A stretch of DNA of 20,000 bases from an uncultured virus (IMG/VR IMGVR_UViG_3300032722_000013) (taxonomy: Duplodnaviria > Heunggongvirae > Uroviricota > Caudoviricetes). The DNA lies in the IMG/VR virus record IMGVR_UViG_3300032722_000013; one strand, given 5' to 3'. The notes beneath the pieces were generated by a model that was given only the letters and a program-made list of their open reading frames with translations, did not search any database and was not told the origin of the DNA. The position numbers and the translations under genes are program-made. Below, piece by piece: positions 417-17,310 of this stretch (position 1 is its first letter; every line of letters begins with the position of its first letter).

Positions 417-719
417 ATGAGTGGTCGTGGTGCCATCAGTGTCGAAATTTTCGAGCGTTTGCTCGTCGAAGACGAAAGTCCTGAGCAACACGTACTGATT
501 CCAGGTGCGCTCTTCTACGCCGTTCGTGACAAGAATGGTCACTACTATCGAACATACAGGCGACTCAGTCGCCGGGCGGGATGGGAACGTGACTATCGGA
601 ACGCGAGCGTGTACACGAGGTCCGGACCGGCACGTTCCCTCGTTACAAGGTTGAAGAAGTCGGGTGTGGAAGCTTTGCTCGTTGAGTTTGTTGTCAATGA
701 GATCAGGACGCTGGTGTGA
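417..719 (+). CDS. Hypothetical phage protein
   Basis: ORF fills the gap between genes. ATG 417 chosen because 408 lies inside the -10 box. Confidence 0.6.
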   Translation: MSGRGAISVEIFERLLVEDESPEQHVLIPGALFYAVRDKNGHYYRTYRRLSRRAGWERDYRNASVYTRSGPARSLVTRLKKSGVEALLVEFVVNEIRTLV

Positions 720-732
720 GGAAAGGATCGCG

Positions 733-1737
733 ATGAGGACCATCTATGTCATGAAGGGACTTCCGGGCTGTGGTAAGTCAACGTTCGCTGCGGAGCTCAT
801 CAAGCGTGAGCCTGGTCGTTGGATCCGGATCAACCGTGACGACCTGCGTGGCATGGCTGTGGGCCCGGGCAACAACCCGCACGATCGTCAGTACGGGAAG
901 GATCGCGAGGACCTGATTCGTACGTTCAAGGAAGATGCGACGCGCCAGGCGATCCGTGCAGGGTATGATGTCATCTTGGACGACACACACCTCGTGCCAC
1001 AGACCGTGAAGAAGATTCACACGCTCGCTATGTCTATCGGGGACGTCAATGTCCTAGAGAAGGCATTCAACGTCAGCGTCGCAGACTGCGTCGCTCGTGA
1101 CGAGAAGCGAACCGGGTTCGCACGAGTCGGCGAGAAGGTCATCAAGGACATGGCCCGCGGCGCCGGGCTTGACAAGGGTCGCAAGCTTCAGGACAAGGAG
1201 ACATACTACGAACCCCGCGCAAACTCGTTTCAGGCCGTCGTCCAGGACAGCAATCTGCCCAAGGCGATCATGTGCGACCTGGACGGTACACTTGCGATCA
1301 TCGGCAATCGCACGCCATACGACGCGACCAACTGCGATGAGATCGACCTGCCAAACTTGCCTGTCATCGCCGCTGTCATGGCGATGCATGCCCAAGGCGT
1401 GAAGGTGATCTTCATGTCCGGTCGTGATGTCAAGTATCGACCCGAGACTGAACGCTTCATCGAGCGGTACTGTCGCGTTTCGAATCCCAACTTCACGAAG
1501 GACGTGATGGAGACGACGGAAACGAAGTCCATTCCGTACGAGCTTCACATGCGCGGTGAACTGGACCTGACAGTGACTGACCAGCGCAAGGACGCCATCA
1601 TCAAGAGTGAGCTTTTCAATGCTCACGTCGCCGGCAAGTACAACGTGTTGTTCGTTCTTGACGATCGCAATCAGGTCGTCGACTTTTGGCGGGAGATCGG
1701 CCTGACTTGCTTCCAGGTGAACCCCGGTGCGTTCTAG
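733..1737 (+). CDS. pseT: Bifunctional 5'-polynucleotide kinase / 3'-phosphatase (T4 PseT-like)
   Basis: N-terminal P-loop GLPGCGKST and RINRDDLR. C-terminal HAD motifs DLDGT, FMSGR and LDDRNQVV. SD AAGGA precedes ATG 733. Confidence 0.92.
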   Translation: MRTIYVMKGLPGCGKSTFAAELIKREPGRWIRINRDDLRGMAVGPGNNPHDRQYGKDREDLIRTFKEDATRQAIRAGYDVILDDTHLVPQTVKKIHTLAMSIGDVNVLEKAFNVSVADCVARDEKRTGFARVGEKVIKDMARGAGLDKGRKLQDKETYYEPRANSFQAVVQDSNLPKAIMCDLDGTLAIIGNRTPYDATNCDEIDLPNLPVIAAVMAMHAQGVKVIFMSGRDVKYRPETERFIERYCRVSNPNFTKDVMETTETKSIPYELHMRGELDLTVTDQRKDAIIKSELFNAHVAGKYNVLFVLDDRNQVVDFWREIGLTCFQVNPGAF

Positions 1738-1741
1738 CACG

Positions 1742-1969
1742 ATGAGCCCGGACAATCGAAAGCGCGTTCAAGATGCTGTTGCAACTGCTGGAGACGAGTT
1801 GAAGGGTAAGCTTCCACCTTTGCCTGATCACCCTGACCGCAACTCCTATGCTCACGTCTGGCGAGAGATCAAGCAGAAGTTCAACGTTGCGTCGTACAAG
1901 GAGTGCGATGACTCTCAGGTCGAGGACATCCTTGTGCTGGTCGAGGAATTGAGATTGAATCCGAGATGA
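1742..1969 (+). CDS. Small hypothetical protein, weak resemblance to ORF6C-type domain
   Basis: YAHVWREIKQKFNVASYKE pattern. Stop overlaps the next ATG (ATGA). Confidence 0.55.
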   Translation: MSPDNRKRVQDAVATAGDELKGKLPPLPDHPDRNSYAHVWREIKQKFNVASYKECDDSQVEDILVLVEELRLNPR

Positions 1970-2772
1970 ATGACATTCGAAAGTACCCACGCACAAGACA
2001 CGTGAGAGGTTCGCGCTTCCAACACGGAGACGATGACCTCGAGGCTGTTCCATGGGACGATCTCAAGGGGAAGTATCTCGTGGTCGAGGAGAAGGTCGAC
2101 GGCGCAAATTGCGGCATCTCTTTCTCTTCTGAGGGGGACCTGTTACTTCAGTCAAGGGGTCACTACCTTCGAGGAGGCCCACGAGAAAAACATTTCAACC
2201 TTCTGAAGCAGTGGTCAGCGGCCAAAATGGACGAATTGTTTGACCTGCTGACCGATCGGTACGTACTGTACGGTGAATGGATGTACGCAAAGCACACGTG
2301 CTTCTACGATGCATTGCCGCATTACTTCATGGAGTTTGACGTGCTCGATACGAAGGGGAATGTCTTCCTGAGCACTGAAGCTCGACGAAAGCTGCTCAAT
2401 CACTCGAGTGAGGGTTGGTCTGTCGTGTGCCCAGTCCGTGTCATCACGGAAGGAGTGTTCGAGAATCTGACTGAGCTTGAAACGCTGAACACACGTTCTG
2501 CATTCATCACAGATGATAGGCTTGCGAACCTGACCGCTGCCGCGATCGATGCAGGCGTTCTGCCCATTGATGCGATCAAGCACACCGACATGGACGAACG
2601 TATGGAGGGCCTCTACATCAAGTGGGAGGAGGACGGGGTGATCAAGGGACGTTACAAGTACGTGCGTTCCTCATTCACTAGTTCAATCCTGGATCAGGAA
2701 ACACACTGGCACGATCGCCCAATCGTGCAGAACAAGCTATCACCGGGCGCTTTTGAGAGGATGCTAACGTAA
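1966..2772 (+). CDS. ATP-dependent RNA ligase family protein
   Basis: KYPRTRH N-terminus, motif I EEKVDGAN, motif III LYGEW, IIIa FMEFDV, IV EGLYIK and V RYKYV. Adjacent to a Pnk gene. Confidence 0.88.
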   Translation: MNDIRKYPRTRHVRGSRFQHGDDDLEAVPWDDLKGKYLVVEEKVDGANCGISFSSEGDLLLQSRGHYLRGGPREKHFNLLKQWSAAKMDELFDLLTDRYVLYGEWMYAKHTCFYDALPHYFMEFDVLDTKGNVFLSTEARRKLLNHSSEGWSVVCPVRVITEGVFENLTELETLNTRSAFITDDRLANLTAAAIDAGVLPIDAIKHTDMDERMEGLYIKWEEDGVIKGRYKYVRSSFTSSILDQETHWHDRPIVQNKLSPGAFERMLT

Positions 2773-11054: not shown

Positions 11055-12032
11055 ATGAAATATGTACTCGTCACAGGCGCAGCAGGATTCCTCGGGAGTC
11101 ATCTCGCGCAGCGTCACCTGGACGCAGGCGACAGGGTGTGGGGTTTCGATTGCTTCATTTCGTCAGATCCAAAGTCGGGACACTTTGTCGACCTCCTGGC
11201 GAATGAACAGTTTGTCTTCAGGGAGCATGACATCACGGAGCGATCACTTCCGCCCGGGTTGCCCGCAAGGTTCGACACGATCTACAACTTTGCATGTCCG
11301 GCTTCGCCGCCTGCGTACCAAGACGTTCCTGTTTTCACTACGTTGACGTGTGTTGTCGGTACGTCTAACATGCTTGACCTTGCGGGCAGGATGAACTGCA
11401 CTCTCATTCATGCATCGACGTCAGAGGTGTACGGAGATCCATCAATCTCTCCTCAGGACGAGTCGTACAGGGGTTATGTCAACTCTTACGGTCCCAGAGC
11501 GTGCTACGACGAGGGAAAGCGCGCTGCTGAGGCGCTGTGCTACGACAACCTGCATTCGCACGAGGTTGATGCAAGGCTTGTCAGGATTTTCAACACGTAT
11601 GGGCCTCACATGGACCCGTACGACGGTCGTGTCGTCAGTAATTTCATCAGGCAAGCGTTGAAGCATGAAAAGCTCACGATCTACGGTGATGGACGGCAAA
11701 GTCGCAGTTTTTGCTACGTCGACGATCTGATCAGGGGCATCGTCGCAGTGGGTGCGTTGGAAGAGAACCCGCAGGGGCCCATCAACCTGGGAAATCCGAA
11801 TGAGTTCACCGTCAAAGAGCTAGCTGAGCAGGTGATCAAGAAGATCTACAGTGGAAATGAACTCAGCCTAGAGCTGAAGAACATGGTTGAATACAGTGAC
11901 ATCCCTGTCGACGATCCGAAGCAACGATGTCCGAACATCGCACGTGCGAAGAAGTTGCTGGATTGGGAACCAGAGGTGATGCTCGATGAGGGTCTAGACA
12001 AGACGATCGCGTACTTTAGGACGGTGGTGTGA
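11055..12032 (+). CDS. NAD-dependent epimerase/dehydratase, UDP-glucuronate decarboxylase (UXS)-like
   Basis: VTGAAGFLG, ACPASP, ASTSEVYGDP, CYDEGKR, RIFNTYGP, DGRVVSNF and DDPKQR. Confidence 0.92.
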   Translation: MKYVLVTGAAGFLGSHLAQRHLDAGDRVWGFDCFISSDPKSGHFVDLLANEQFVFREHDITERSLPPGLPARFDTIYNFACPASPPAYQDVPVFTTLTCVVGTSNMLDLAGRMNCTLIHASTSEVYGDPSISPQDESYRGYVNSYGPRACYDEGKRAAEALCYDNLHSHEVDARLVRIFNTYGPHMDPYDGRVVSNFIRQALKHEKLTIYGDGRQSRSFCYVDDLIRGIVAVGALEENPQGPINLGNPNEFTVKELAEQVIKKIYSGNELSLELKNMVEYSDIPVDDPKQRCPNIARAKKLLDWEPEVMLDEGLDKTIAYFRTVV

Positions 12033-12514
12033 TGCACAAGCGCGGGCCTATCTTTGACACGACCTGGTGCGAACGCAAGACGCTCGAGGAAGCTCAGAAG
12101 TTAGCGTTGAAGCTCTACGACGATCCTAAACACAAGCGTACGCCTGAGATGAAGATTCGCGACACCCATGTTGGCTTCGTGGGCGAGGTGACGAATGCCT
12201 GGCGAAATGACGCATTGAAAGGGTGGATCAGGAGACACATCGCGCTCAAGGACAAGACCGATGATGGCGGGATCGACTTCGTGGAAGAGGACGGCACGAC
12301 TGTCGGCGTCAAGACGATCGAAGTCGGCTACGCCTGTGTCAAGGTCTGCTCCCGCCGCGATGGCGTCTACCCTGACGTCTACATCGTGTACGAATGGGAC
12401 AGGAAGAACCACAAGATCTGGGAGGCTGGGCGCTTTACACAGAGCGACGTGCACGACATCATGTACCCCAACGGCTACCCCTGCAGGGGCGTCTACGTAA
12501 GTGAGCTAGTGTAG
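12032..12514 (+). CDS. Hypothetical protein, possible PD-(D/E)xK nuclease-like fold
   Basis: GFVGE ... DDGGIDF ... VGVKT pattern. Start coupled to the upstream stop. Confidence 0.55.
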   Translation: MHKRGPIFDTTWCERKTLEEAQKLALKLYDDPKHKRTPEMKIRDTHVGFVGEVTNAWRNDALKGWIRRHIALKDKTDDGGIDFVEEDGTTVGVKTIEVGYACVKVCSRRDGVYPDVYIVYEWDRKNHKIWEAGRFTQSDVHDIMYPNGYPCRGVYVSELV

Positions 12515-12545
12515 TTTGGGTCGGGAAGGGGTACGATGAAAGACG

Positions 12546-12575
12546 GTGTAAAGTACGCTGACTTGAGGGTACAGT
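12546..12575 (+). promoter_or_regulatory. Putative promoter of dnaE, TGTAAA-N17-TACAGT
   Basis: Recurring motif about 40 nt upstream of ATG 12613. Confidence 0.6.
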
Positions 12576-12612
12576 ACAAGCAACAGCTCACTCTAACGTG
12601 GGAAGGAAAGTG

Positions 12613-14976
12613 ATGACCTCAGACAACAGAAAGGAGACATCAGGGAACCCAGTGAGAGTGCCTCGCCGATTTTTCGGCCTGCACAACCACACTGGGTTCT
12701 CCTGATGAAGTAGATCCCCATTCGACGGGCTCGGCTACCCTGACGACCACTTCAAGTTTTGCATAGAGAACGGCCTTGACGGCCATGCAATCACCGAACA
12801 CGGTCAGATGACGTCCTATGCGCACGCTCAGCTCTGGGTCGAGAAACACAACAAGGAACGTGGTGACAAGCCACCGTTTCTGTACATCCCGGGCGTCGAA
12901 GCGTACTATCACCCCGACCTCAGCGCTTGGGCGAAGGACAAGGAACTCGCAGAGCAAGCTCGTGATGATAAGGCGGCTGCAAAGAAGCTAGCGAAGAAGC
13001 AAGAGGAGATCCGGACTCCGATCGTAGCAGTCGTGGACGCTAGCGACGAGACGGATGACTTCGAGACCAACAACGCCCTTACGATCGAGGACGAGGACGA
13101 GACGAAGTCGAACAAGCACTTCAACCCTGTCAACAGGCGACATCACCTCGTCGTCCTACCGAAGAACCAAAAAGGACTGCTGAAGATCTTCGCCGCTTGT
13201 TCAAAGGGCGCATTGCATGGTTTCTACAGGTTCCCTCGTATCGACTGGAACGTGCTCCGCGAAGCAGGAAAGGACGGCGACATCATCGCTAGCTCTGCGT
13301 GCATGGGCGGGCCGATGGCATACGCCGTCTTCCAGGAGGTCCAACGCACGGAGTTCGACAAGCTCAGCGAGAAATTGCTCGATGACGCTGCGCTTCGAGA
13401 AAGATGCATACTCAAGGTCGGCGACGTCTACGATCAGATGGTGAGTGCAATCGGAGAAGGAAACTTCTACCTTGAGTTGCAGTTCAACCGCATCCCAGCG
13501 CAGAACCTCGTCAACAGGGCGATCATTGAGTTCGCTAAGCGCTCCGGTCTGCAAAAGCAGCTGATCGTGACGGGTGATGCTCACTACTACGGTCCCGAGC
13601 TCTGGAAGGAACGTGAGCTGTACAAGCGTCTCGGTTGGATGGGACGTGAGATCAATCCTGAATCACTGCCTAAGTCTCGAGCTAGCCTGGCATGCGAGCT
13701 GTACCCGAAGAACGCTTCCCAGATTTGGGAGGAGTATGGGCGATCAAAGGAGGGCACGTCCTTCTATGATGATGAACTCATCGCTGACGCCATTGAGCGG
13801 ACGCATGACATTGCCCACAACGTCATCGGTGACATTCAGCCCGACCGTTCTCCAAAGTTCCCAACTGACAAGCTGATTCCGAAGGACACGCCTTCATTCG
13901 TGCATCTCCTGAACCTGTGCAAAGAAGGCATGCACAAGCGTGGGCTTCAGGACAAGCCCGAGTACATCACCCGACTCAAGGAGGAACTCGGAGTCATCAA
14001 GGCGATGAAGAACGAGGTGTACTTCATCTCGTATCAGAAGATCATGGAGCTAGCTCGCAAGGTGTGCCTGTGCGGACCTGGACGAGGTTCGGGAGGCGGC
14101 TCTTTGGTGGCATACGTCCTGTACATCACGGACATGGACCCGATCAAGTGGGACCTTCCGTTCGCTCGGTTCTTGAGCGTGTACCGAAAGGGATCACCTG
14201 ACATCGACACTGACCTTGCAGACCGCGACAAGGTGCTTGACCAGCTTCGCGGGTTCTTTGGTTTTGAGAACGTGGTGCCCATCTCGAACTACAACACGTT
14301 CAAGCTCAAGACGCTCGTGAAGGACATCGGCAAGTTCTACGGCGTTCCGTTCGAGGAGACGAACGCAGCCACGAGAACGGTCGAGGACGAGTGTCGCAAG
14401 GCAACGATGAGGGAGGGTGATGACAAGAACCTCTTCGTCTTGACATACGACGACGCAATGGGTTATCACTGCGTGCAGAAGGGCCCAGATGCGAAACCCG
14501 TCTGCGATGGCTGCACGCCTGGCTGTACGACCATGGTCAGCCCTTCGTTCAGGGCGTTCATGGAGAAGAATCCTCAGGTGCAGGAGAGTATCAAGATTCT
14601 GTTCAGACAGAACCGATCGCTAGGTCGCCATGCAGGTGGTGTACTCATTGCTGACGACCTTCCCAACAAGATGCCACTCATCGCCAGCAAGGGTGAACCG
14701 CAGTCACCGTGGTGTGAGGGTGTCAACTTCAAGCACCTCGAGTACATCGGCAACTTCATCAAGTACGATCTGCTCGGGTTGACGACGATGCGTATCATCG
14801 AGCGGACGATCGAGCTCATCCTTCAAGGGGAGGGCGGTATTGTAGAGCTTGATATTGATGGTGTACAGTATCGTTTGACAAGGAAGACACGTGTTCGACT
14901 AACGGACAAACGTATCGTTGAAGTTGGTTCACTGTGTGAAGGTGATGACATCATTGTGCCCATCGAAGTTTGTTGA
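12613..14976 (+). CDS. dnaE: DNA polymerase III alpha subunit, N-terminal part (PHP + palm/thumb), interrupted by a 15-nt in-frame gap with two TGA codons at 12703-12708
   Basis: LHNHTGFS[**SRS]PFDG, AITEHG, GVEAY, SSACMGG, GDAHY, GPGRGSGGGSLVAY, SPDIDTD, GRHAGG and KYDLLGL. ATG 12613 (SD AAGGA) is in frame with ORF 12808..14976. Confidence 0.88.
12638..12717 (+). other. Candidate translational bypass element: long hairpin plus matched TCC take-off (12700-12702) and landing (12715-12717) codons
   Basis: CATCAGGGAACCCAGTG (12638-12654) pairs with CACTGGGTTCTCCTGATG (12690-12707), giving 17 bp with one bulge. Inner stems are GTGC/GCAC and GCCGA-TTTT-TCGGC. Confidence 0.6.
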
Positions 14977-15682
14977 CGTCTGGCACGTCTATCAAGACTG
15001 GACGATCGAAGACGTTCCTCGTTGCTTCTATTGTGGTAAAGGCGATGATGATCGTATTGCTCGTAGGTACCGCAACAAACATCACAAGAACGTTGCGTTG
15101 AAATACGGTATGAAGCGTATCATTGTAATGAGCACACATGATGAGCAGTTCGCTCTTGATGAGGAGATTAAGAACATCGCTGAACAACACACGTATGTCT
15201 ATGATCCACAGTACAATGGAATTGGTACGAACTATACCATAGGTGGTGAAGGAACATCCGGACATAAGGATACCCCTGAGCAAAGAGATCGTCGACGTAT
15301 TTCGCAGACATTGGCGTGGCGTGATCCTGTTGTGCGACTCGCACGTATAAAAGCGCGTAATCGTCCGGATGTCAATGAAGCGTTGAAAGCTCGCGCTCGT
15401 ATTACGCAAAGCGCGAATTGGAAGGATGATGATTATCGTGCAACACAATGCGTTGCGATTCGAGTTGCGCAAAATAATCCACAAACACAAGCAAAAAGAC
15501 GAGCGTCTAATTCGATTGCTGCACAAGAACAGTGGTGCAGCAATCGTGAGATGATGCTTTCTATTCTGCAAAGTGATGCGTACAGAGAAAAGCAACGTCT
15601 AGCTCATGTGGGGAAGAAACAACGCTGCGGATTGTGCGGTGAATTAGGACACAAACGTTCTTCATGTAAGAAAGGACGATGA
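14945..15682 (+). CDS. Putative homing endonuclease (GIY-YIG-like N-terminus, helical repeats, C-terminal CCHC zinc knuckle) inserted in dnaE
   Basis: VYQDW....PRCFYCGKG...R, ALDEEIKNI and NYTIGGEG, ending CGLCGELGHKRSSC. AT-richer than the flanks and overlaps both dnaE halves. Start uncertain (TTG 14918 or ATG 14945). Confidence 0.78.
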   Translation: MTSLCPSKFVDVWHVYQDWTIEDVPRCFYCGKGDDDRIARRYRNKHHKNVALKYGMKRIIVMSTHDEQFALDEEIKNIAEQHTYVYDPQYNGIGTNYTIGGEGTSGHKDTPEQRDRRRISQTLAWRDPVVRLARIKARNRPDVNEALKARARITQSANWKDDDYRATQCVAIRVAQNNPQTQAKRRASNSIAAQEQWCSNREMMLSILQSDAYREKQRLAHVGKKQRCGLCGELGHKRSSCKKGR

Positions 15683-17310
15683 TGGCAAAGATCACCTCAG
15701 TAAAATTGAGCAGTACTACTTTTGAGGACATCAAGTGTTGGTACGACGCCCATCTGGCGCCAGACATCATCGATTTTGATGATCCGAAGCCTTACGAGGT
15801 ATACGCGCAGGGGAAATTTGCGGGTATATTTCAGGTTACGGGTCCTGGAGCCCAGCGTCTCTTCAAGAAGGCGAAGCCGCAGAGCATCATTGATATCGCA
15901 ACGCTTACATCGATCTATCGCCCGGGTCCATTGGCCGCCCACGTTGATAAGCTCTACCTTGAGGCTAAGAATGAAGGCAAAAAGATGGAGTGGGGTGATC
16001 AACGGATCAATGATATTCTTGAAAAAACATATGGATGCATCATCTTTCAAGAGCAGGTGATGGAACTCGCTGAAAAGTGTGCAGGATTTCCGAAAGACAA
16101 GTGCGACGAAGTACGTCGTGCGATCATGAAACGTAGCATCTCGGGCGGCGAGGCGGCGAAAAAAGTCGCGCAGGAGACACGTACTAGCTTTGTCGCAGGA
16201 TGCGTCAAGAACGGGTACCTAGAAAAAGTTGCAAACAATCTTTACGATCGCATACTATTTTTTGCGGGCTATGGCTTTAACGCAGCCCATGCGACTGCTT
16301 ATGCCATCGACAGCTACTGGTGCGCATGGCTACTGACGTACTACGAGGAATTCTGGCTATGTGCGTACCTCGAGTCGATGTCCTCCACGCCTGACAAGCG
16401 GGCAAAGGCATTCGGTGAGGCGAAGGCGTTGGGTTACCAGATCGTTCCAATTGACATCAACTATGCTGAACTTGGTTGGACATCTCTCCCGGGTAAGAAG
16501 CTCATGCCCAGCATGACGTCATGCAAGGGCGTTGGTGCCTCTGCGGTGCAAGAGATCATGTCAATGCGGCCTTTTGAGAGTGTTGAGGACATGCTCTACG
16601 AACCCGATGGTTCGTGGCGCTTGAGCAAGTTCAACAGCAAGGCCCTCACGGCGCTCATCACGGTCAGGGCGTTTGATAGCTTGGGATGCGTCGGACCTGA
16701 CAAGGTCTTCAAGAGCTACAGGCACATGTACGAGACCATGATGGGTGAGTTCACAGAGACCGTCACAAAGAAACGTAAAGGAGTCGAGGAAACGCTTGAC
16801 GTAGTACGTGATCACAGTGCTCTGATCAAGAGGTCGACGAAGAAGGATCCGCAGGAAGGAAGAAAGAACTTTTACGAGCTAGCTCGTGGTCTATCGGAGA
16901 TCTTCAAGGAAGAGTGGACGAGCAGGGAGCTAGCTGAGCTCCACGCGAAGGTGTTCGGGTCGGTTGACGTCATGATGATGTTCGACCAGAGCATCTTTGA
17001 CAAGCTGGCCGAGAAGGACGTCAAGTCGATCGAGGAGCTCGAGGTGGGCGACACCGACGTGGTCTGGTTCGTCACCGTGCTGGCCGCGGGCAAGAAGGGC
17101 AAGACACCCTCAGCGGGCACGATGAAACAGACGAAGAACAAGAAGAACTATGCGCAGGTCTTCGTCTCGGGTCCCACGGGCAAGGCGCTGCGCGTCAACG
17201 TATGGGGTGCGAACGAGCTGTTCGAGCCTTACAAGCTCTTCGTGGGAGAGGTTAAGAGGGACGATTTCGGTTACAGCACGACTGCATGGAAGTCGAAGGA
17301 GATCGCATGA
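15679..17310 (+). CDS. dnaE: DNA polymerase III alpha subunit, C-terminal part (fingers, HhH, OB)
   Basis: GIFQ, SIYRPGP, TYGCIIFQEQVM, FAGYGFNAAHATAY, PIDIN and KGVG. Has its own SD (AAGGA) and ATGATG start. Confidence 0.9.
   Translation: MMAKITSVKLSSTTFEDIKCWYDAHLAPDIIDFDDPKPYEVYAQGKFAGIFQVTGPGAQRLFKKAKPQSIIDIATLTSIYRPGPLAAHVDKLYLEAKNEGKKMEWGDQRINDILEKTYGCIIFQEQVMELAEKCAGFPKDKCDEVRRAIMKRSISGGEAAKKVAQETRTSFVAGCVKNGYLEKVANNLYDRILFFAGYGFNAAHATAYAIDSYWCAWLLTYYEEFWLCAYLESMSSTPDKRAKAFGEAKALGYQIVPIDINYAELGWTSLPGKKLMPSMTSCKGVGASAVQEIMSMRPFESVEDMLYEPDGSWRLSKFNSKALTALITVRAFDSLGCVGPDKVFKSYRHMYETMMGEFTETVTKKRKGVEETLDVVRDHSALIKRSTKKDPQEGRKNFYELARGLSEIFKEEWTSRELAELHAKVFGSVDVMMMFDQSIFDKLAEKDVKSIEELEVGDTDVVWFVTVLAAGKKGKTPSAGTMKQTKNKKNYAQVFVSGPTGKALRVNVWGANELFEPYKLFVGEVKRDDFGYSTTAWKSKEIA

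What the first reader, a model, noticed from the sequence alone, without database searches (positions are those of the whole stretch)
12638..12707. Long coding-region hairpin whose 3' arm covers the take-off codon and the stops
Seen: 12638-12654 is complementary to 12690-12707 (17 bp, one bulged nt), with inner stems GTGC/GCAC and GCCGA/TCGGC around a T4 loop. The pairing runs into the inserted TGATG, so the poorly conserved N-terminal extension (TSGNPV codons) appears matched to the insert. This suggests a selected element and not a random insertion. Known: stem-loops 5' of and at the take-off site promote gene 60 bypassing. Inference: refolding behind the stalled ribosome could push it on to the landing codon.
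Basis: partly seen in the sequence, partly recalled or inferred. Interest (0 to 1): 0.8.

Follow-up and report, generated by a model that had tools for sequence, protein, structure and literature searches.

The report
Ribosome-hop hairpin in phage polymerase gene
An uncultured phage's DNA polymerase gene is interrupted near its start by a short stop-containing insert, left by a mobile nuclease gene, and a conserved RNA hairpin with a ribosome-binding motif beside it most likely lets ribosomes jump over the insert, a very rare way of reading a gene that has not yet been shown in the lab for this family.

Summary
The hairpin is real: -42.2 kcal/mol, z -8.3, and 0 of 2000 synonymous shuffles match it. 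It lies in a phage dnaE whose PHP motif is split after Ser (TCC 12700) by two stops; coding resumes after a second TCC 15 nt on. I found 68 distinct relatives with 5-16 nt gaps in all three frames, always a stop directly after the Ser codon. A hairpin of z<=-3 occurs in 55 of 68 gapped and 0 of 77 ungapped loci, and covaries at wobble positions. The landing triplet's third base tracks the take-off codon. Best reading (about 0.78): programmed ribosomal bypass, working like T4 gene 60/MobA and phiHau3 terminase but a separate family. No RNA or protein data exist, so the hop and the hairpin's role are inferred. Seven literature searches found no description. This scan reported the same kind of cassette earlier on other DNA (e1-5644472).

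The parts
12536..12613 (+). 25-codon remnant of the C-terminus of the cassette's PD-(D/E)xK-type nuclease gene (ends WEGK-stop); its stop overlaps the dnaE start (TGATG)
   Evidence: Aligns with the C-termini of 20 intact 253-318 aa genes found upstream of gapped dnaE loci, 61% identical to the first row over the aligned piece; intact genes hit Pfam Phage_endo_I and PHROGs endonuclease families
12600..12607 (+). Purine-rich RBS-like motif for the dnaE start, formed by the nuclease's last codons
   Evidence: Sequence; the same motif precedes most gapped ORF1 starts. Function inferred
12613..12702 (+). ORF1: 30 codons, replacement N-terminus of DnaE with the PHP HxH motif, ending in the Ser take-off codon
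   Evidence: ungapped homologs read HxHTGFSPFDG without a break; the motif aligns with the first PHP strand of PDB 2hpi_A (weak domain score)
12630..12636 (+). Internal Shine-Dalgarno-like motif (AAAGGAG) at the 5' foot of the hairpin
   Evidence: GGAG 55-85 nt before the Ser codon in 64 of 68 gapped vs 27 of 77 ungapped loci; 11-16 nt from the helix partner in 63 of 68; in all three frames 21/22/20
12638..12654 (+). 5' arm of the long hairpin
12658..12684 (+). Inner stems and 4-U loop; not conserved in register across relatives
   Evidence: absent from the consensus
12690..12707 (+). 3' arm of the hairpin: His-Thr-Gly-Phe-Ser codons plus the first 5 nt of the gap
12700..12702 (+). Take-off codon TCC (Ser)
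   Evidence: Ser codon followed by a stop in 68 of 68 gapped loci
12703..12714 (+). Non-coding gap starting with two TGA stops
12715..12717 (+). Landing triplet TCC, identical to the take-off codon; 7 nt after the helix end
12718..14976 (+). ORF2: resume codon CCA onward; rest of the PHP domain and the Pol III alpha domain
   Evidence: Pfam PHP and DNA_pol3_alpha

Best explanation
The hairpin is the RNA signal of a programmed ribosomal bypass carried by a mobile nuclease cassette. SHOWN BY COMPARISON: a free-standing PD-(D/E)xK-type nuclease gene inserts into the 5' end of phage dnaE at the HxHxG(FS) site, strands the old N-terminus upstream, and supplies a new 26-36 codon N-terminus whose codons also encode an SD and a hairpin, followed by Ser-stop, a 5-16 nt gap and a Ser-like triplet. 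Here the nuclease has decayed to 25 codons while the cassette persists. INFERRED: the ribosome starts by coupling at TGATG, unwinds the hairpin and stalls with peptidyl-tRNA-Ser on TCC and a stop in the A site. The mRNA leaving the ribosome re-zips and draws the ribosome forward until the helix is complete, 7 nt short of the second TCC. The finished hairpin loops out about 70 nt and brings the upstream SD to an initiation-like distance (7 unpaired nt here), which fixes the landing. The tRNA re-pairs and decoding resumes at CCA, giving an intact PHP domain. INFERRED BY ANALOGY with MobA: the gap protects the allele from its own nuclease without changing the protein.
For: Gaps are of 10 lengths in all frames (27/17/24) and start with TAA 31, TGA 19 or TAG 18 of 68. 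In the scan anchored only downstream, 10 of 85 loci had a gap and all 10 had a stop right after Ser. Landing matches take-off at 3, 2 or 1 positions in 13, 51 and 4 of 68, the middle base in 65. After TCC/TCT the third base is a pyrimidine in 36 of 36 tree rows, after TCG a purine in 17 of 21; 8 independent pairs, median sign-test p 0.031. The one AGT take-off has an AGT landing (L157). Hairpin z<=-3 in 55 of 68 vs 0 of 77; 25 cells with double-sided change vs 7.8 shuffled, 0 of 500, at the three wobble positions. SD distance to take-off varies 65-77 nt with hairpin span (rho 0.84) while its distance to the helix stays 11-16 nt. Helix end lies 4-9 nt from landing in 46 of 64. Nuclease or remnant upstream in 6 of 8 gapped vs 1 of 51 ungapped loci of the unbiased set. 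Orphan old N-termini upstream of the nuclease in 7 of 46 loci and 21 of 50. Gap state changes at least 21 times on a 132-row tree, with gapped and ungapped sisters on starred branches.
Against: No protein or RNA evidence exists for any member. Only 13 of 68 have an identical landing codon; first-position mismatches are common (27 of 68 differ there), looser than the gene 60 family as described by Manning and Atkins. L095 and L141 have a gap with no strong hairpin and no SD, L141 with an intact nuclease; 13 of 68 miss z<=-3. The SD-to-landing spacing is not a tight ruler: 0-15 nt by minimum-energy folding, 5-13 nt in only 27 of 44, and the unpaired lengths on the two sides correlate positively, not negatively. 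In 18 of 64 the helix runs to within 0-3 nt of the landing triplet and would have to be partly open. RNAalifold on the full 43-row MAFFT alignment found no pairs; the covariation comes from 23 rows I chose for equal hairpin length. 17 of the 50 best nuclease loci have ungapped dnaE, two with an unchanged GFS site (L032 outside that set, L191 in it), so the gap is not required for carrying the nuclease.
Confidence: 0.78

Rival explanations
1. Split protein by re-initiation: ORF1 ends at the stop, and the hairpin-bridged SD starts ORF2 at a non-AUG codon (a split RBS as in T4 genes 38 and 25). The 30-aa peptide would complete the PHP barrel in trans.
For: SD-hairpin-codon geometry resembles T4 genes 38/25, where a stem shortens SD-AUG spacing from 22 to 5 and 27 to 11 nt (passage of PMC3014915). 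ACG and TTG, possible start codons, are frequent landing triplets after TCG (14 of 26 TCG loci). Nuclease insertions elsewhere give two-chain enzymes (Manning and Atkins).
Against: An in-frame ATG/GTG/TTG between stop and landing exists in only 8 of 68 loci, any near-cognate start in 27 of 68. This window has none before the landing triplet, and its first in-frame ATG is at 12808, beyond the conserved D and TEH. It does not explain why the landing's third base follows the take-off codon or AGT-to-AGT.
Confidence: 0.08
2. RNA-level removal: the gap is a micro-intron cut at the foot of the hairpin and sealed, for example by the phage's own kinase and RNA ligase.
For: The window encodes a polynucleotide kinase and an RNA ligase at 664-2772, and the gap sits at a helix end in every case.
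Against: No Rfam match in the window. Gap sequences share nothing but a leading stop of any of three kinds, never TGG although the pattern allowed it (the one TGG hit, L126, was not a gapped dnaE). An intron needs neither an SD nor wobble-type matching.
Confidence: 0.06
3. A mix of ordinary recoding: stop readthrough in the in-frame cases (including this one, or a recoded TGA) and +1/-1 frameshifts in the others, with a few extra residues tolerated.
For: This gap is in frame. Some ungapped subfamilies have one extra residue here. L176/L187 carry a 1-nt insertion without a stop behind a similar hairpin, which looks like a +1 shift.
Against: 41 of 68 gaps change frame and all three stops are used with one shared architecture. 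Here two consecutive stops would have to be read. TGA ends other genes of this window, including ORF2.
Confidence: 0.05
4. The gapped alleles make no intact PHP domain (dead or N-truncated gene), and the hairpin serves something else such as mRNA stability or repression.
For: A -42 kcal/mol stem 25 nt after the start could lower expression by itself. Gene callers list N-truncated forms such as P0001.
Against: ORF2 stays open for 753 codons. HxH is kept in all 10 gapped loci of the downstream-anchored scan and all 31 stop-gapped loci of the nuclease-anchored set, neither of which was selected for it. Orphan copies decay while the cassette copy does not.
Confidence: 0.03

Closest known systems
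T4 gene 60 bypass in the MobA element (Manning and Atkins, bioRxiv 10.1101/2022.08.31.505936: abstract and Discussion read; Wills et al., bioRxiv 10.1101/2024.12.09.627546: abstract, first part of Introduction and section 18 read)
   Same: Mobile endonuclease plus non-coding gap in an essential replication gene; stop right after the take-off codon; landing triplet readable by the same tRNA; SD and RNA structure as signals; replacement N-terminal extension; nuclease decays while the bypass stays; scattered recent insertions.
   Different: Host gene is dnaE (PHP motif), not topoisomerase; nuclease is PD-(D/E)xK-type; gap 5-16 nt, not about 50; Ser take-off, not Gly or Asp; two-of-three landing is the rule; SD lies 65-77 nt 5' of take-off, not in the gap; one long covarying hairpin, whereas the gene 60 5' stem-loop is reported as not conserved between clades.
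Streptomyces phage phiHau3 terminase bypass (Antonov et al. 2023, PMC10732093: passages and section 19 read; supplements with the structures not read; Smith et al. 2013 not seen)
   Same: Short gaps (7-10 nt) in a phage gene, with a stem-loop and flanking SD proposed as 5' stimulators; a junction peptide was found in E. coli with a UAA variant.
   Different: Trigger is a hungry UUA codon and a regulatory role is proposed; 3 of 100 terminase genes; no nuclease cassette in the parts read. I could not compare the SD-stem geometry, which is in the supplements and in Smith 2013.
Split ribosome-binding sites of T4 genes 38 and 25 (passage in PMC3014915)
   Same: A stem between SD and codon shortens a long spacing to a working one.
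   Different: There it serves initiation at AUG; here it lies inside a coding sequence before a non-start triplet.
Magnusiomyces mitochondrial bypassing inserts and synthetic stop-hops (passages in PMC5009743)
   Same: Short inserts, imperfect two-of-three landing; stop-hop with matched codons around one stop is exactly L092.
   Different: Mitochondrial ribosomes and unused codons there. The 2016 review says no natural in-frame stop hop was known.

Membership tests
Programmed translational bypassing (general) | Two ORFs that together match one uninterrupted homolog, separated by a non-coding gap present in DNA | tested here: met
Programmed translational bypassing (general) | Stop or hungry codon in the A site at take-off | tested here: met
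   68 of 68 (partly selected by the pattern); 10 of 10 in the unbiased scan
Programmed translational bypassing (general) | Landing triplet that the take-off tRNA can re-pair with | tested here: met
   Identical TCC here; 64 of 68 match at two or three positions; third base tracks take-off, median p 0.031
Programmed translational bypassing (general) | Gap retained in the mRNA and one polypeptide made across it | not testable with these tools
   No RNA holder listed; no proteomics
T4 gene 60 / MobA bypass element | Inserted in the topoisomerase large-subunit gene at Gly46 or Asp45 | tested here: not met
   Host gene is dnaE; definition
T4 gene 60 / MobA bypass element | Gap of about 50 nt with a mini-SD about 6 nt 5' of the landing codon | tested here: not met
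   Gaps 5-16 nt; SD 65-77 nt 5' of take-off
T4 gene 60 / MobA bypass element | MobA (or VSR/GIY-YIG replacement) endonuclease upstream | tested here: not met
   Upstream gene hits Phage_endo_I in 7 of 9 proteins scanned, one above cut-off, and PHROGs endonuclease/resolvase families
T4 gene 60 / MobA bypass element | Nascent-peptide signal acting in the exit tunnel | not testable with these tools
   ORF1 is 20-36 codons, 67 of 68 at 26-36; its extension is constrained by the RNA signals
phiHau3 terminase-type bypass | [quoted passage not shown] | tested here: not met
   Stops only, in dnaE
phiHau3 terminase-type bypass | Short gap with stem-loop and SD 5' of it | tested here: inconclusive
   Present here; their geometry is in supplements I did not read
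Free-standing homing endonuclease cassette | Nuclease gene at a fixed site, patchy among close relatives, with insertion scars | tested here: met
   50 of the 50 best relatives precede dnaE; orphan N-termini; 21 state changes
Free-standing homing endonuclease cassette | Cleaves the empty allele and spares the occupied one | not testable with these tools
   Needs a cleavage assay

The most novel reading that the evidence does not exclude
A widespread natural bypass family in which one covarying hairpin both drives the ribosome off a Ser-stop site and, once formed, loops out 55-70 nt to place a distant SD at landing distance. Position would then set the landing site, so a two-of-three codon match is enough on ordinary bacterial ribosomes. 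It would include natural stop-hops (6-nt gaps).
Probability: 0.4. Interest if true: 0.9.

Novelty: new variant of a known kind. Interest (0 to 1): 0.8.

Why it matters
Programmed bypassing in bacteria and phages rests, in the papers I read, on gene 60 and its relatives and on a few Streptomyces terminase genes. This is an independent family with 68 natural variants of gap length, frame, stop and landing codon in a cassette of about 100 nt. Wills et al. name events at the mRNA exit as arguably the main unsolved problem of gene 60 bypassing and propose that continuous pairing of exiting mRNA drives the ribosome; a single covarying hairpin ending 4-9 nt before the landing site is a simple test object for that. 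It also shows a second, convergent way for a homing nuclease to sit in an essential gene without an intron or intein. Practically, gene callers give these polymerases false or truncated N-termini (for example P0001, P0025, P0038, P0058).

Tried and rejected
No whole genome is held for the window, so I could not look for other gapped genes or a second polymerase in this phage. Rfam: 0 matches in the window. The gap pattern found 0 matches in genome contigs. No close cultured phage: 117 records matched, all under 60% identity, so the host is unknown. No RNA holder listed among 21 runs; this says nothing on expression. No joint that removes the gap in 4 DNA runs, but contigs drop rare variants and X18 does not cover the gap. 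RNAalifold on 43 rows aligned by MAFFT gave no pairs because a gap split the 5' arm and registers differ; I then used 23 equal-length rows, so that result covers one length class. A strict SD-to-landing ruler was tested and not supported. The idea that the SD is only part of the stem (pairing with the Ser-Pro codons) fits some loci such as L017 and L022, but the motif is kept where the downstream codons cannot pair (L063, L100). The idea that the SD is just the old start's RBS fits L092, where it serves an ATG, and may be its origin; in the others a 5' arm lies between SD and the old start position. Pfam gave no intein hit on the tails at the second dnaE break. Rows dropped: L103 (contig end), L126 (TGG, not a gapped dnaE) and the orphan copy in L012; L176 and 14 rows under 200 aa from the tree; one ungapped locus with too little upstream DNA. 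The script mislabelled L153, L154 and L163 as ungapped; I recounted them as gapped (one search agrees for L154 and L163; L153 shares the L154 ORF1 and its contig ends). The tree is FastTree only, with long-branch warnings. Literature searches with no description of this family in their listings: (open-licence PMC and bioRxiv only).

Full report
Observation. In the wider 12600-12760 stretch the signal is diluted, z -2.48 with 3 of 200 shuffles as stable. With the amino acids and the gap fixed, 0 of 2000 synonymous shuffles reach it, and it gives the two most stable of 3986 sampled 70-nt windows.

Context. The window looks like a large phage (kinase, RNA ligase, methylases, HNH, DnaE). No genome is held and no cultured phage is close. 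From ATG 12613 the frame reads 30 codons to HNHTGFS, then two stops, two more triplets, TCC and PFDG. Most of the 120 listed homologs read HxHTGFSPFDG-like without a break. The motif aligns with the first PHP strand of a solved DnaE; that HxH and the following D bind the PHP metals is recalled knowledge. The insert is in DNA beyond this contig: L120 is identical, and X5 and X8 contigs cross it unchanged.

A family. A scan anchored only on the downstream FDGLGYP codons gave 85 viral loci, 10 with a gap, all 10 with a stop directly after the Ser codon. A pattern with the upstream codons plus TRR gave 52 metagenome loci, 50 of them gapped dnaE, and none in genome contigs. A search with the upstream nuclease added more. 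Pooled: 187 loci, 147 distinct, 68 with a stop-led gap, 1 with a 1-nt insertion, 78 ungapped. Gaps are 5-16 nt, in frames 0/1/2 in 27/17/24 loci, led by TAA 31, TGA 19, TAG 18. The pooled set is biased towards gaps by design; only the 10 of 85 is a frequency.

The hairpin is selected. A 75-nt stretch ending at the Ser codon has z<=-3 in 55 of 68 gapped and 0 of 77 ungapped loci (medians -4.6 and +0.3). RNAalifold on all 43 rows aligned by MAFFT found nothing. On 23 equal-length rows it found an 8-bp core with double-sided changes at three pairs. These are the third positions of the Phe, Gly and Thr/Ser codons. For a 12-bp helix, 87.5% of cells pair and 25 cells change on both sides, against 7.8 in shuffles (0 of 500); slid registers pair 32-59%. 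Two other measures, pairs with double change and extra pair types, did not exceed shuffles. The tool warns that relatedness inflates such counts. Pairing into the gap appears in the three longest gaps, bringing the helix end to 6-7 nt from landing; overall that distance is 4-9 nt in 46 of 64 and 0-3 nt in 18. L095 and L141 lack both hairpin and SD.

An SD at the foot of the hairpin. GGAG lies 55-85 nt before the Ser codon in 64 of 68 gapped and 27 of 77 ungapped loci (in the latter it is mostly the start's own RBS, by inspection). In 63 of 68 it is 11-16 nt from the helix partner, while its distance to take-off runs 65-77 nt and follows hairpin span (rho 0.84). It falls in all three frames about equally, so it is kept as RNA, not as peptide. 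In this window it is AAAGGAG at 12630-12636, with 7 unpaired nt between SD and landing once the hairpin is looped out. Across the family that spacing is 0-15 nt and is not a tight ruler.

Landing follows take-off. The triplet before the resume codon matches the take-off codon at 3, 2 or 1 positions in 13, 51 and 4 of 68 loci. After TCC or TCT its third base is a pyrimidine in 36 of 36 tree rows; after TCG it is a purine in 17 of 21. Over 8 independent pairs the trait never goes the other way (median p 0.031). L157 takes off from AGT and lands on AGT. This is what re-pairing of the same peptidyl-tRNA predicts. An in-frame NTG start in the gap exists in 8 of 68.

A mobile cassette. Many gapped loci have a 253-324 aa gene directly upstream, with CxxC motifs and a C-terminal YTPDF...ExKG domain, often ending WEGK with its stop at or near the dnaE start. 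It hits Phage_endo_I and PHROGs endonuclease families. This window keeps its last 25 codons at 12536-12613. In the unbiased set, nuclease or remnant is upstream of 6 of 8 gapped and 1 of 51 ungapped loci with enough flank. The 50 best relatives of the nuclease all precede dnaE: 31 with a stop-led gap, 2 with a 1-nt insertion, 17 ungapped (three labels corrected by hand). The 29 weaker hits examined do not. An orphan copy of the old dnaE N-terminus, broken at HxHxG to FS, lies upstream of the nuclease in 7 of 46 and 21 of 50 loci, which marks the insertion site. On a FastTree of 132 rows the gap state changes at least 21 times; the window's sister L001 (80% identical, support 100) is ungapped. 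A count of changes cannot tell gain from loss.

Mechanism. The comparative facts above are shown. The steps on the ribosome are inferred from gene 60 work: stall at the stop, forward drive by pairing of exiting mRNA (proposed in Wills et al.), landing helped by SD pairing, and looping out of a spacer between SD and codon as in T4 genes 38 and 25. Protection of the occupied allele is inferred from MobA, where the bypass insert blocks nicking. The 17 ungapped nuclease loci show the gap is one option, not a requirement. Rivals are re-initiation (0.08), RNA excision (0.06), mixed readthrough and frameshift (0.05) and a dead allele (0.03).

Comparison and novelty. It works like the gene 60/MobA element but fails that family's defining features of host gene, gap size, SD position and nuclease. 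It is closer in size to the phiHau3 terminase bypass, whose 5' stem-loop and SD I could not compare in detail. Seven searches listed no paper on a bypass in dnaE; subscription journals are mostly outside the library. An earlier report of this scan describes a 10-nt stop insert with a nuclease-linked cassette at the same motif in another phage (e1-5644472); I saw it after forming my reading and it is not independent proof. Verdict: real, selected feature; new variant of programmed bypassing; interest 0.8, held below higher values because no product has been observed.

Noticed in passing
window 14809-15810: dnaE is broken a second time: ORF2 stops at 14976, a 254-aa ORF with no Pfam or PHROGs hit (14918-15682) overlaps it, and the finger/HhH part restarts at 15679. 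Both ends carry short extra tails that look by eye like decayed intein pieces; Pfam found no intein. Layout resembles the fractured genes of PMC2677866 (passages) and earlier scan notes on dead intein clasps.
   Followed up: partly
window 12029-12514: 161-aa ORF between the epimerase and the nuclease remnant; no Pfam or PHROGs hit; Atlas neighbours are viral clusters, some with DUF5843 on 22-29% of members. It has a D...xK pattern suggestive of a nuclease, untested.
   Followed up: partly
L176 and L187, dnaE start: Nuclease-bearing alleles with a single extra base after a Phe codon, no stop, behind a hairpin: possibly a +1 frameshift version of the same cassette.
   Followed up: no
L092:1132-1224 and L101: 6-nt gaps: L092 has identical Ser codons on both sides of one TGA, a literal stop-hop candidate; its SD also serves the ORF1 ATG.
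   Followed up: partly
L095 and L141: 5-nt gap with neither strong hairpin nor SD; L141 has an intact nuclease. Unexplained exceptions.
   Followed up: partly
proteins P0045 and P0040: Called as uninterrupted but carry cassette-like N-terminal extensions (ENPVR, RKE), which suggests precise loss of the gap; no DNA was available.
   Followed up: no
L162 and L125, upstream of the nuclease: L162 has two orphan dnaE N-termini (983 and 1839 nt upstream); in L125 the orphan lies 1.6 kb upstream with another gene between. Suggests repeated insertions at this site.
   Followed up: no
L148, L172-L175, L177, L178, L180-L185, L188-L191, L032: Nuclease upstream of ungapped dnaE; 15 of these 17 distinct loci lack the GFS form of the site, two keep it. 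Possibly immunity by substitution, not tested against background.
   Followed up: partly
window 664-2772: Polynucleotide kinase-phosphatase next to an RNA ligase, an RNA-repair pair.
   Followed up: no
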